Assembly (NCBI GenBank): GCA_964016885.1
Contig: OZ024751.1
Span: forward strand, 18,972,001-19,036,000
Direction: 5' to 3'
Origin: Eledone cirrhosa
Lineage: Eukaryota
Length of the DNA stretch: 64,000 bases
Position 1 is the stretch's first letter, and every line of letters begins with the position of its first letter. This document shows, piece by piece, positions 37,093 to 40,877 of the stretch. Position numbers and translations under genes: made by a program. The notes under the pieces are model-generated. The model made no database searches and was not told the DNA's origin. It worked only from the letters and a program-made list of their open reading frames with translations.

Positions 37093-37171
<79 letters not shown>

Positions 37172-37237
37172 GACGTAAAATAAGAAAATATCTTTTTAAA
37201 AAAATTTTAAAAAAATTTTTTACTTACTTAAATTTTC

Positions 37238-37320
37238 ACTCCAACTAATTAGTTTCTGCAATGGGATAAAGACAGTTACGTAATACCAACTGTCGAGAAT
37301 TCATTGCGTCATCAGGGAGT
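37238..37320 (-). ncRNA. Type I hammerhead ribozyme (array unit 1; repeats every 558 bp)
   Basis: Minus strand ACTCC-CTGATGA-CGCAATG...CATTGCA-GAAA-CTAATTAG-TT-GGAGT; further copies start at 37796, 38354, 38912, 39470 and 40028. Confidence 0.8.
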
Positions 37321-40300
37321 CTATTCTCAGTTAAGTCTCCAGGCAATGCGCGGACACTGGCGGCTCATATAAAAATAATAATAATTCGGTAGATCGAACA
37401 GCTTGCGAGGACTGGATTCTATGTACCGAAATTCTCACTGCTTCAAGTCAAATGGCCGATTCTAAAGAATCAATCACGTGACACAGAGGCTAGTTAGAAG
37501 GAATGGGATGGTAAGATGACTGACGCCTACTAACACCCCAAAAAAAATTTTTTTAGAAGTGGTTTTGACAAGTTTGCTCGACAAATCAGTGATTTGGAGA
37601 TAAATATAGATAATTTAATATATCAACTAACATAAGCGCACAGATGCACGCCCATGCCAGCAAATACACAGGTTATGTCATAGTACCTAGGTGGTTCAAT
37701 GCAGGAGAATGCAGAACAATAATATAAAGGACGTAAAATAAGAAAATATCTTTTTAAAAAAATTTTAAAAAAATTTTTTACTTACTTAAATTTTCACTCC
37801 AACTAATTAGTTTCTGCAATGGGATAAAGACAGTTACGTAATACCAACTGTTGAGAATTCATTGCGTCATCAGGGAGTCTATTCTCAGTTAAGTCTCCAG
37901 GCAATGCGCGGACACTGGCGGCTCATATAAAAATAATAATAATTCGGTAGATCGAACAGCTTGCGAGGACTGGATTCTATGTACCGAAATTCTCACTGCT
38001 TCAAGTCAAATGGCCGATTCTAAAGAATCAATCACGTGACACAGAGGCTAGTTAGAAGGAATGGGATGGTAAGATGACTGACGCCTACTAACACCCCAAA
38101 AAAAATTTTTTTAGAAGTGGTTTTGACAAGTTTGCTCGACAAATCAGTGATTTGGAGATAAATATAGATAATTTAATATATCAACTAACATAAGCGCACA
38201 GATGCACGCCCATGCCAGCAAATACACAGGTTATGTCATAGTACCTAGGTGGTTCAATGCAGGAGAATGCAGAACAATAATATAAAGGACGTAAAATAAG
38301 AAAATATCTTTTTAAAAAAATTTTAAAAAAATTTTTTACTTACTTAAATTTTCACTCCAACTAATTAGTTTCTGCAATGGGATAAAGACAGTTACGTAAT
38401 ACCAACTGTCGAGAATTCATTGCGTCATCAGGGAGTCTATTCTCAGTTAAGTCTCCAGGCAATGCGCGGACACTGGCGGCTCATATAAAAATAATAATAA
38501 TTCGGTAGATCGAACAGCTTGCGAGGACTGGATTCTATGTACCGAAATTCTCACTGCTTCAAGTCAAATGGCCGATTCTAAAGAATCAATCACGTGACAC
38601 AGAGGCTAGTTAGAAGGAATGGGATGGTAAGATGACTGACGCCTACTAACACCCCAAAAAAAATTTTTTTAGAAGTGGTTTTGACAAGTTTGCTCGACAA
38701 ATCAGTGATTTGGAGATAAATATAGATAATTTAATATATCAACTAACATAAGCGCACAGATGCACGCCCATGCCAGCAAATACACAGGTTATGTCATAGT
38801 ACCTAGGTGGTTCAATGCAGGAGAATGCAGAACAATAATATAAAGGACGTAAAATAAGAAAATATCTTTTTAAAAAAATTTTAAAAAAATTTTTTACTTA
38901 CTTAAATTTTCACTCCAACTAATTAGTTTCTGCAATGGGATAAAGACAGTTACGTAATACCAACTGTCGAGAATTCATTGCGTCATCAGGGAGTCTATTC
39001 TCAGTTAAGTCTCCAGGCAATGCGCGGACACTGGCGGCTCATATAAAAATAATAATAATTCGGTAGATCGAACAGCTTGCGAGGACTGGATTCTATGTAC
39101 CGAAATTCTCACTGCTTCAAGTCAAATGGCCGATTCTAAAGAATCAATCACGTGACACAGAGGCTAGTTAGAAGGAATGGGATGGTAAGATGACTGACGC
39201 CTACTAACACCCCAAAAAAAATTTTTTTAGAAGTGGTTTTGACAAGTTTGCTCGACAAATCAGTGATTTGGAGATAAATATAGATAATTTAATATATCAA
39301 CTAACATAAGCGCACAGATGCACGCCCATGCCAGCAAATACACAGGTTATGTCATAGTACCTAGGTGGTTCAATGCAGGAGAATGCAGAACAATAATATA
39401 AAGGACGTAAAATAAGAAAATATCTTTTTAAAAAAATTTTAAAAAAATTTTTTACTTACTTAAATTTTCACTCCAACTAATTAGTTTCTGCAATGGGATA
39501 AAGACAGTTACGTAATACCAACTGTCGAGAATTCATTGCGTCATCAGGGAGTCTATTCTCAGTTAAGTCTCCAGGCAATGCGCGGACACTGGCGGCTCAT
39601 ATAAAAATAATAATAATTCGGTAGATCGAACAGCTTGCGAGGACTGGATTCTATGTACCGAAATTCTCACTGCTTCAAGTCAAATGGCCGATTCTAAAGA
39701 ATCAATCACGTGACACAGAGGCTAGTTAGAAGGAATGGGATGGTAAGATGACTGACGCCTACTAACACCCCAAAAAAAATTTTTTTAGAAGTGGTTTTGA
39801 CAAGTTTGCTCGACAAATCAGTGATTTGGAGATAAATATAGATAATTTAATATATCAACTAACATAAGCGCACAGATGCACGCCCATGCCAGCAAATACA
39901 CAGGTTATGTCATAGTACCTAGGTGGTTCAATGCAGGAGAATGCAGAACAATAATATAAAGGACGTAAAATAAGAAAATATCTTTTTAAAAAAATTTTAA
40001 AAAAATTTTTTACTTACTTAAATTTTCACTCCAACTAATTAGTTTCTGCAATGGGATAAAGACAGTTACGTAATACCAACTGTCGAGAATTCATTGCGTC
40101 ATCAGGGAGTCTATTCTCAGTTAAGTCTCCAGGCAATGCGCGGACACTGGCGGCTCATATAAAAATAATAATAATTCGGTAGACCGAACAGCTTGCGAGG
40201 TACCACCTAGGTACTATGACATAACCTGTGTATTTGCTGGCATGGGCGTGCATCTGTGCGCTTATGTTAGTTGATATATTAAATTATCTATATTTATCTC

Positions 40301-40576
40301 CAAATCACTGATTTGTCGAGCAAACTTGTCAAAACCACTTCTAAAAAAATTTTTTTTGGGGTGTTAGTAGGCGTCAGTCATCTTACCATCCCATTCCTTC
40401 TAACTAGCCTCTGTGTCACGTGATTGATTCTTTAGAATCGGCCATTTGACTTGAAGCAGTGAGAATTTCGGTACATAGAATCCAGTCCTCGCAAGCTGTT
40501 CGATCTACCGAATTATTATTATTTTTATATGAGCCGCCAGTGTCCGCGCATTGCCTGGAGACTTAACTGAGAATAG

Positions 40577-40659
40577 ACTCCCTGATGACGCAATGAATTC
40601 TCGACAGTTGGTATTACGTAACTGTCTTTATCCCATTGCAGAAACTAATTAGTTGGAGT
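40577..40659 (+). ncRNA. Type I hammerhead ribozyme (inverted array unit)
   Basis: Stem I ACTCC/GGAGT; stem II GCAATG/CATTGC enclosing the hairpin GACAGTT/AACTGTC; palindromic stem III CTAATTAG; predicted GUU cut after 40654. Confidence 0.8.
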
Positions 40660-40844
40660 GAAAATTTAAGTAAGTAAAAAATTTTTTTTAAATTTTTTTA
40701 AAAAGATATTTTCTTATTTTACGTCCTTTATATTATTGTTCTGCATTCTCCTGCATTGAACCACCTAGGTACTATGACATAACCTGTGTATTTGCTGGCA
40801 TGGGCGTGCATCTGTGCGCTTATGTTAGTTGATATATTAAATTA

Positions 40845-40877
<33 letters not shown>

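What the first reader, a model, noticed from the sequence alone, without database searches (positions are those of the whole stretch)
37166..40850. 558-bp hammerhead concatemer: candidate retrozyme or reverse-transcribed circular RNA
Seen: ~5.4 head-to-tail non-coding units, then after one non-templated T (40201) ~1.16 units in the opposite orientation. The units are almost identical (I saw only isolated changes, e.g. GTCGAG to GTTGAG in unit 2 and GATCG to GACCG in unit 6). Each has one type I HHR, both ends abut (TA)n, and the two arms end at different phases of the unit. Established: metazoan non-LTR retrozymes are tandem HHR repeats whose transcripts self-cleave to monomers that circularise, and they are thought to be mobilised by PLEs. 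Inference: this is a single recent insertion made by rolling-circle reverse transcription of a 558-nt circular RNA, with the same fold-back step as the small elements. The monomer is long for this class. One caveat is a C-A mismatch at the base of stem II.
Basis: partly seen in the sequence, partly recalled or inferred. Interest (0 to 1): 0.9.

Follow-up and report, generated by a model that had tools for sequence, protein, structure and literature searches.

The report
Two-armed hammerhead retrozyme copied from one template
This is one fresh insertion of an abundant 558-base non-coding repeat with a predicted self-cutting RNA motif, and a one-base change found in all seven of its motif copies and nowhere else in the assembled genome suggests that both arms were copied again and again from one small RNA, likely a circle, by a borrowed Penelope-type reverse transcriptase.

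Summary
Observation confirmed: 5.44 units (37164-40200), a non-templated T, then 1.17 inverted units (40202-40855), in (TA)n, with one type I hammerhead per unit. The unit belongs to a dispersed non-coding family of roughly 2,000-2,500 loci (estimate).

(1) Outer ends sit at two fixed sites, A and B, 122 nt apart, and two-armed insertions use one of each (32 A/B, 0 A/A, 0 B/B in an unbiased set). The same holds in coding Penelope-like elements (PLEs). This is twin priming from the target, not fold-back. (2) A +1 allele occurs exactly 7 times in the 3-Gb assembly, all in this insertion and in both arms; another locus alternates two unit types three times. (3) Twelve loci join both arms at the predicted cut (one control position: 0). 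(4) Chimaeras with coding Hydra-like PLEs exist.

The stem II C·A is a conserved family trait, and 558 nt is not unusually long. No RNA data; no coding parent found. Verdict: a new variant of animal non-LTR retrozymes, with genomic evidence on how PLE enzymes likely copy them. The scan noted similar elements from other families in this genome.

The parts
37096..37168 (.). (TA)n target, left; its last bases overlap the A end
37164..40200 (-). Arm 1: 5.44 head-to-tail 558-bp units, hammerhead sense on minus. Outer end at fixed site A (phase 557), inner end at phase 245
37238..37320 (-). First of six type I hammerhead motifs in arm 1 (repeats every 558 bp; CUGAUGA at 37315, 37873, 38431, 38989, 39547, 40105). 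Predicted cut between 37243 and 37242
   Evidence: covariation
37273..37293 (.). First of seven copies of a +1 allele in the stem II insert (six in arm 1, one at 40604-40624 in arm 2); found nowhere else in G000
40201..40201 (.). Non-templated T joining the two arms
40202..40855 (+). Arm 2: 1.17 units, hammerhead sense on plus. Inner end at phase 530, outer end at fixed site B (phase 435)
40577..40659 (+). Type I hammerhead of arm 2: stem I ACUCC/GGAGU; C·A then GCAAUG/CAUUGC with an inserted hairpin; palindromic helix III; predicted cut after GUU at 40654
40733..40855 (+). 122-nt 'tail' between sites A and B, present only on the B arm's end; holds a long predicted hairpin
40849..40878 (.). 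(TA)n target, right; overlaps the B end

Best explanation
This is a very young insertion of a non-coding hammerhead retrozyme that a Penelope-like element (PLE) enzyme likely pasted into (TA)n by priming both cut DNA strands on one unit-length RNA, probably a circle, and copying it round several times. Steps: (1) Arrays are transcribed (inferred). (2) Neighbouring hammerheads likely pair through the palindromic helix III and cut after GUU (structure conserved; cleavage inferred from junctions). (3) The pieces exist as linear RNAs starting at the cut and, after ligation, as monomer and sometimes dimer circles (inferred). (4) A PLE protein, likely a dimer, nicks both strands of (TA)n and starts one cDNA at site A and the other at site B, 122 nt apart (end positions shown; coupling on one RNA inferred). 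(5) Each cDNA runs for 0.05-9 units and stops at random or at the RNA's cut end; the two cDNA 3' ends are joined, here through one added T (shown as junctions). The result is a head-to-head pair with a tail at one end only.
For: Fixed ends: 252 exact A junctions and 434 exact B junctions, reversed-pattern controls 0. 191 of 196 outer ends abut (TA)n. One-of-each rule: 32 A/B, 0 A/A, 0 B/B among 50 A and 100 B ends listed for C1 and C2 up to 122 Mb; 27 of 28 two-armed loci in the 40 best BLAST loci, the other having an odd short arm; 13 of 14 in older subfamilies; 15 of 15 in the 525-bp sister family; 8 of 8 and 3 of 3 in two coding PLE families. The last four counts were read by eye. One template: the +1 allele is in 7 of 7 copies here and has 7 matches genome-wide. 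Divergence is 0.10% within arms, 0.13% between arms and 0.86% between loci; arms agree at site 152 in 43 of 43 loci (20.9 mismatches expected if independent); 81 fixed against 11 partial variant events. L058 alternates 557/558-bp units with several linked markers three times, in register in its other arm. Cut use: 12 loci join both arms at the cut, control 0; 23 inner ends at phases 58-78 against 6 at 79-99, p=0.0016. No indel at the cut in 380 units that cross it. Helices covary: 8 pairs changed on both sides, 0 of 500 shuffles. Chimaeras with coding PLEs: L035 and L195.
Against: No circle or transcript is shown. The assembly is one representation, so a parent array carrying the +1 allele could lie on another haplotype or in another individual. 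Exceptions exist: one A/A locus (L138), three odd two-armed loci, and 49 arms with no same-family partner among 120 stretches. L118 has arms from different templates, and L035, L032 and L135 have a foreign second arm, so coupling on one RNA is not absolute. L031, L040, L054, L056 and L035 carry variants in 2-3 units that a monomer circle does not explain. Clean period-2 holds in only 1 of 18 arms with four or more units (L058; L049 and L054 weaker). The pile-up inside the cut overlaps A/T runs and the edge of stem I, the best-scoring cliffs lie at phases 73 and 79, and a second cliff lies at 156-160, so stalling of the enzyme may contribute. No coding PLE with a matching terminal repeat was found. 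In vitro, an Anolis PLE did not need hammerhead cleavage (PMC11167929), and 8 of 9 Xenopus retrozyme dimers did not cleave.
Confidence: 0.68

Rival explanations
1. Linear multimer template: a homogeneous parent array is read through and partly cleaved, and the PLE enzyme copies the linear n-mer once from sites A and B. No circle is needed for this insertion.
For: Arms often end at the first, second or third cut (lengths near 0.35, 1.35, 2.15 units). L054 carries one variant in register in both arms at its third unit. Uncleaved RNA was the main substrate in vitro. The strand excess of 2417 against 1839 motif matches could hide a large array.
Against: No parent with the +1 allele in G000. Linear inheritance can only shorten arrays and pass on variants as partial, yet 34 distinct variants are fixed across whole loci, 7 of them private. 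No large array among the candidates scored (40 of 1,318 and 35 of 2,516).
Confidence: 0.17
2. Nicked-ring template: a linear monomer whose ends are held together by hammerhead stem I is re-copied by template jumps across the nick, telomerase-like, without ligation.
For: It explains single-template homogeneity and stops at the cut together. PLE RTs are related to telomerase (PMC8557442).
Against: Run-off junctions at the cut carry 0-3 extra bases, but none of 380 crossings has an indel at the cut. A jump would likely leave such scars.
Confidence: 0.09
3. DNA-level local amplification (unequal crossover or slippage) of a single inserted terminal repeat, the model favoured for array growth in Li et al. 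2026.
For: Proposed for vertebrate retrozyme arrays. L139 shows a whole insertion duplicated locally.
Against: Both inverted arms are multi-unit at many very young loci. Within-arm and between-arm divergence are about equal (0.10% and 0.13%). Ends are fixed at RNA-defined sites.
Confidence: 0.04
4. Assembly artefact (collapsed or palindromic mis-join).
For: The 40201 junction was not bridged in any listed public contig; this is uninformative.
Against: Each of 120 stretches has its own unit count, junction and haplotype, under one shared end rule that also holds in diverged subfamilies.
Confidence: 0.02

Closest known systems
Animal non-LTR retrozymes (Cervera and de la Pena 2020, PMC7229834, parts 2-4 of 6 read; Li, Clavereau and Pollet 2026, 10.64898/2026.07.22.740005, parts 1-3 of 5 read)
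   Same: Tandem, low-GC, non-coding units with one type I hammerhead each, dispersed in many loci. The size is inside the 51-972 bp range. A mismatch at the base of helix II has a precedent (U·U in axolotl HHR_Amex2, which cleaves). Circular dimers formed in vitro with RtcB.
   Different: In the parts read, those papers do not describe two-armed head-to-head insertions, two fixed priming sites or allele-level evidence for the template. Circle-templated integration is a hypothesis there. RNA circles were shown there and are untested here.
EN+ Penelope-like elements, especially the (TA)n-targeting Hydra clade (Craig et al. 2021, PMC8557442, passages; Arkhipova et al. 2013, PMC3846280, passages)
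   Same: [quoted passage not shown] Two coding families here show Hydra motifs: CxCx5C and CxxC..CxH in one, RWK and DKT in the other. This is a motif match, not a tree.
   Different: No ORF. The tail is 122 nt instead of 30-40. The one-tail rule is nearly strict here. Arkhipova 2013 proposed self-priming for head-to-head structures, whereas unequal inner phases here favour two target-primed cDNAs.
Poseidon element of Anolis in vitro (Frangieh et al. 2024, PMC11167929, parts 1-2 of 4 read)
   Same: Two internal RT start sites flanking the tail; both DNA strands nicked and extended; predicted protein dimer.
   Different: They saw no strand difference in start site, no need for cleavage and no RNA-seq ends at the cut. 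Here the two ends of an insertion use different sites almost without exception, and 12 loci record ends at the cut.
PLE minimal hammerheads (Cervera and de la Pena 2014, PMC4209133, parts 1-2 of 4 read)
   Same: Short helix I, long helix II, extra base after position 9, palindromic helix III implying dimer cleavage. That paper already proposed circles as templates for more-than-unit reverse transcription.
   Different: An extra A also precedes G12 (C·A), and helix II carries a second hairpin.
L1 twin and dual priming (Meyer et al. 2010, PMC2837659, passages)
   Same: Two target-primed cDNAs give an inverted pair; a second RNA can supply the other arm.
   Different: No poly(A). Both start sites are fixed. 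Both arms can exceed unit length.

Membership tests
Animal non-LTR retrozyme | Tandem repeats with a type I hammerhead in each unit | tested here: met
   Seven motifs, one per unit; covariation across subfamilies
Animal non-LTR retrozyme | No protein coding | tested here: met
   Longest Met ORF round the circle 19 aa (sense) and 27 aa (antisense); longest stop-free run 52 aa
Animal non-LTR retrozyme | Dispersed multi-locus family, GC under 50%, no LTR layout | tested here: met
   PBS and PPT motifs were not searched for separately.
Animal non-LTR retrozyme | Self-cleavage of the transcript | tested here: inconclusive
   Indirect only: 12 double-cut junctions against 0 at one control position; end pile-up
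Animal non-LTR retrozyme | Expressed as linear and circular monomer RNA | not testable with these tools
   No RNA run was available to test; indirect support for re-copying
Animal non-LTR retrozyme | Target-site duplication | tested here: inconclusive
   Cannot be read inside (TA)n
Autonomous Penelope-like element | ORF with RT and GIY-YIG endonuclease | tested here: not met
   No ORF in the unit. tblastn hits in 139 family stretches were neighbours or chimaeras where examined (L035, L150, L195); the others were judged by coordinates only.
Penelope-like element insertion footprint | Partial tandem, inverted 5'-truncated copy, tail at one end, microsatellite target | tested here: met
Pseudo-LTR of a coding PLE | Unit is homologous to the terminal repeat of a coding family | tested here: inconclusive
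   No match to two coding families. The one candidate, L195, is a chimaera. Only a small part of the family was sampled.
Canonical hammerhead (Rfam families) | Match at gathering score; G10.1-C11.1 pair next to G12 | tested here: not met
   0 matches; C·A in 82 of 86 distinct variants and U-A in 4

The most novel reading that the evidence does not exclude
PLE insertion in this genome is a coupled two-site reaction: a dimeric enzyme bound to one ribozyme-made RNA ring starts one DNA strand at site A and the other at site B and rolls round the ring in both arms. Retrozymes, and coding PLEs too, would then integrate by double rolling-circle reverse transcription, with the hammerhead making the ring and also ending copying when the ring is cut.
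Probability: 0.45. Interest if true: 0.82.

Novelty: new variant of a known kind. Interest (0 to 1): 0.62.

Why it matters
Three questions are stated as open in the papers read: what the hammerhead does in PLEs (PMC8557442), how tandem/inverted PLE structures and the tail arise (PMC8557442, PMC11167929), and whether retrozyme circles are really the templates for new insertions (PMC7229834). This family gives allele-level genomic records for each, and a 558-nt substrate with two mapped start sites and young coding PLE families in the same genome for an in vitro test. The element class is known, the circle idea has been in print since 2014, and the scan has noted similar elements in other families of this genome. 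The value is mechanistic evidence, not a new kind of element.

Tried and rejected
Rfam scan: no match. Parent search: L195 looked like a coding PLE ending in a 75% relative of the unit. The coding family's other copies end in a different hammerhead (29 other loci read; all 39 other full matches stop at the same place), so L195 is a same-sense chimaera and was rejected as parent. The 75% relative is itself a non-coding 520-525-bp tandem family. Large master array: none among the candidates scored; the strand excess stays unexplained. Expression: no RNA holder listed. Laying public contigs showed abundant relatives in organism A's runs and short low-depth pieces in three others; no listed piece bridged 40201; uninformative. 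Pfam and PDB found nothing for the coding PLE fragment P0001. Simple fold-back was rejected: only 5 of 71 A/B insertions have inner phases within 3 nt of each other. Junction microhomology (41 of 71 overlap, 12 blunt, 18 with added bases) was not tested against a null and is not used as evidence. One search was in the wrong frame. A sequence look-up in earlier findings returned nothing. Literature searches found no paper describing a one-A-one-B rule or twin priming for PLEs or retrozymes. The library is partial, and no supplements were read; Fig. S2 of PMC11167929 and Fig. S9 of PMC7229834 may bear on this. The host was not identified; 'octopus' was a recalled guess used only as a search term.

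Full report
Observation. The array is as described: arm 1 at 37164-40200 (5.44 units of 558 bp), a T at 40201 that neither arm templates, and arm 2 at 40202-40855 (1.17 units, inverted), between two (TA)n tracts. Three substitutions separate the copies (37852, 40184, 40689), plus one inside the TA junction. I number the unit from 37166 (phase 1). Hammerhead sense is the reverse of this numbering, so both arms have their RNA 3' ends outward. The unit has no ORF. The monomer folds at z = -4.5 against 100 shuffles.

The ribozyme. Each unit has CUGAUGA, a 5-bp stem I, a C·A followed by a 6-bp stem II with an inserted hairpin, GAAA, and a palindromic helix III ending in GUU. The cut is predicted between phases 78 and 77 (after 40654). 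Rfam does not score it. Helix III has no predicted stability as a monomer and -9.0 kcal/mol as a duplex of two copies, the dimer design described for PLE hammerheads (PMC4209133). Among 86 distinct motif variants from the fetched loci, 82 keep C·A and 4 have U-A. In 12 hand-picked representatives, 8 of 21 pairs change on both sides (0 of 500 shuffles; slid controls 0-3). Related sequences can beat this shuffle test, so it is support, not proof. The C·A is therefore a family trait, with a precedent in the U·U of an axolotl hammerhead that cleaves. Cleavage itself is untested.

The family. The unit gave 968 candidates, of which 40 were scored. A 28-nt hammerhead pattern matches 4,256 times; the first 100 matches fall in about 59 loci by my count, giving roughly 2,000-2,500 loci. 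I mapped 120 stretches of the young family (the window, 39 best BLAST loci, 80 chosen from end lists), 20 from older subfamilies and 26 distinct loci of a 75%-identical sister family with a 520-525-bp unit. None examined has an ORF as part of the repeat.

Two fixed ends, one of each. Outer ends lie at phase 557 (A) or 435 (B), 122 nt apart: 252 and 434 exact junctions, controls 0. 191 of 196 outer ends abut (TA)n. In the range where both lists are complete there are 32 A/B pairs and no A/A or B/B. In the 40 loci chosen by unit identity, 27 of 28 two-armed loci are A/B. Over all 120 stretches: 71 A/B (26 stretches were picked as pairs, so this count is biased), 1 A/A (L138, picked as an exception), 0 B/B, 3 odd, 33 single B arms, 16 single A arms and 1 unclassified piece. 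By eye the rule holds in 13 of 14 older loci, 15 of 15 sister loci and 8 of 8 and 3 of 3 head-to-head pairs of two coding PLE families, whose tails are about 80 and 97 nt. This is the PLE 'tail at one end' (PMC8557442), whose limits are two RT start sites (PMC11167929). Inner phases differ in 66 of 71 cases, so the second arm is not a fold-back of the first. Two target-primed cDNAs, as in L1 twin priming, fit the data (inference).

One template. All 7 hammerhead copies here carry a +1 allele in the stem II insert. None of the other 119 stretches has it (308 copies in 87 stretches have the usual allele), and it matches exactly 7 places in G000, all in this insertion. Family-wide, divergence is 0.10% within arms, 0.13% between arms and 0.86% between loci (277 units, 92 stretches). 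Arms agree at site 152 in 43 of 43 loci. 81 locus-variant events are fixed, 11 partial and 73 singletons; 7 fixed variants are private (A/T runs masked; the duplicate in L139 and the interrupted L179 dropped). L058 alternates two unit types three times, with its A arm in register, as a two-unit template copied round would give; circular dimers form in vitro. Against: period-2 is clean in only 1 of 18 long arms. L031, L035, L040, L054 and L056 carry partial variants that point to longer templates or later exchange, and L118 has discordant arms.

The cut is used. Inner ends are enriched at phases 21-78 and fall after it: 23 at 58-78 (8.1 expected) against 6 at 79-99 (7.8 expected), p = 0.0016 for 192 arms. 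A/T runs and stalling at stem I may add to this, and a second cliff lies near 156-160. More telling, 12 loci join both arms at the cut with 0-3 bases between (3 blunt), against 0 at one control position. The unit has no palindrome there. In 9 of the 10 fetched the pair is A/B, and in 3 the A arm first crosses one intact cut site. None of 380 units that span the cut has an indel at it. Templates thus likely include both RNAs that begin at the cut and RNAs that are covalently continuous across it.

The enzyme. L035 joins a B arm of this family to the A end of a young coding PLE. L195 switches, in the same sense, from the sister unit to the 3' UTR of a second coding family. The coding families show Hydra-clade motifs (motif match only, no Pfam or PDB hit), a clade that targets (TA)n. 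Neither has a terminal repeat homologous to the unit, so the parent and the usual helper are not identified.

Verdict. It works like a PLE unit without its ORF and meets the testable features of animal non-LTR retrozymes; expression, cleavage and circles are untested. Best model (0.68): coupled two-site priming on one re-copied unit, probably a ring. Rivals: linear multimer from an unseen parent (0.17), nicked ring with jumps (0.09), DNA-level amplification (0.04), artefact (0.02). Circle-templated PLE copying was proposed in 2014. I found no paper with the one-of-each rule or allele-level evidence in five searches (no supplements read). After forming this reading I saw that the scan had reached similar views for other unit families in this genome; those notes are not independent evidence.

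Noticed in passing
window 40879-41097 and 41123-41314: Two small two-armed hammerhead elements in (TA)n, with one arm longer by about 70-80 nt. The second is 85% identical to the 3' end and tail of the young coding PLE in L150, so the same A/B layout appears in miniature.
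   Followed up: partly
window 14780-14953, 57700-57972, 15690-15730: Further hammerhead motifs of another family (stem I UUUUAU/AUAAAA, GUA or AUA triplet), two of them as inverted pairs.
   Followed up: no
window 49318-50856 and 26789-26902: Broken PLE ORF remnants, 39-48% identical to P0001, and a 95% fragment of the young coding family.
   Followed up: no
window 35241-35683: Three 147-bp tandem units, 97% alike; the type I scan reported no hammerhead there.
   Followed up: no
G000: The 28-nt hammerhead pattern has 2417 forward and 1839 reverse matches, an unexplained excess that could mark a long one-strand array.
   Followed up: partly
L032:2657-2802, L135, L104, L101: B arms whose partner arm comes from other repeat families that also end at (TA)n: dual priming on different RNAs in a minority of insertions.
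   Followed up: partly
unit phases 148-151 (L064, L065, L119, L146, L157, L178, L038, L055, L159): Nine inner ends cluster at the junction of stem I and CUGAUGA, possibly a stall at the strand that pairs with the neighbouring unit in a double hammerhead.
   Followed up: no
L228:590-1210 (minus strand): A coding PLE in partial tandem: hammerhead and tail run on into an ORF start with RWK and DKT motifs.
   Followed up: partly
L139:291-3273: A whole A/B insertion duplicated 2,034 bp apart with identical junctions.
   Followed up: no
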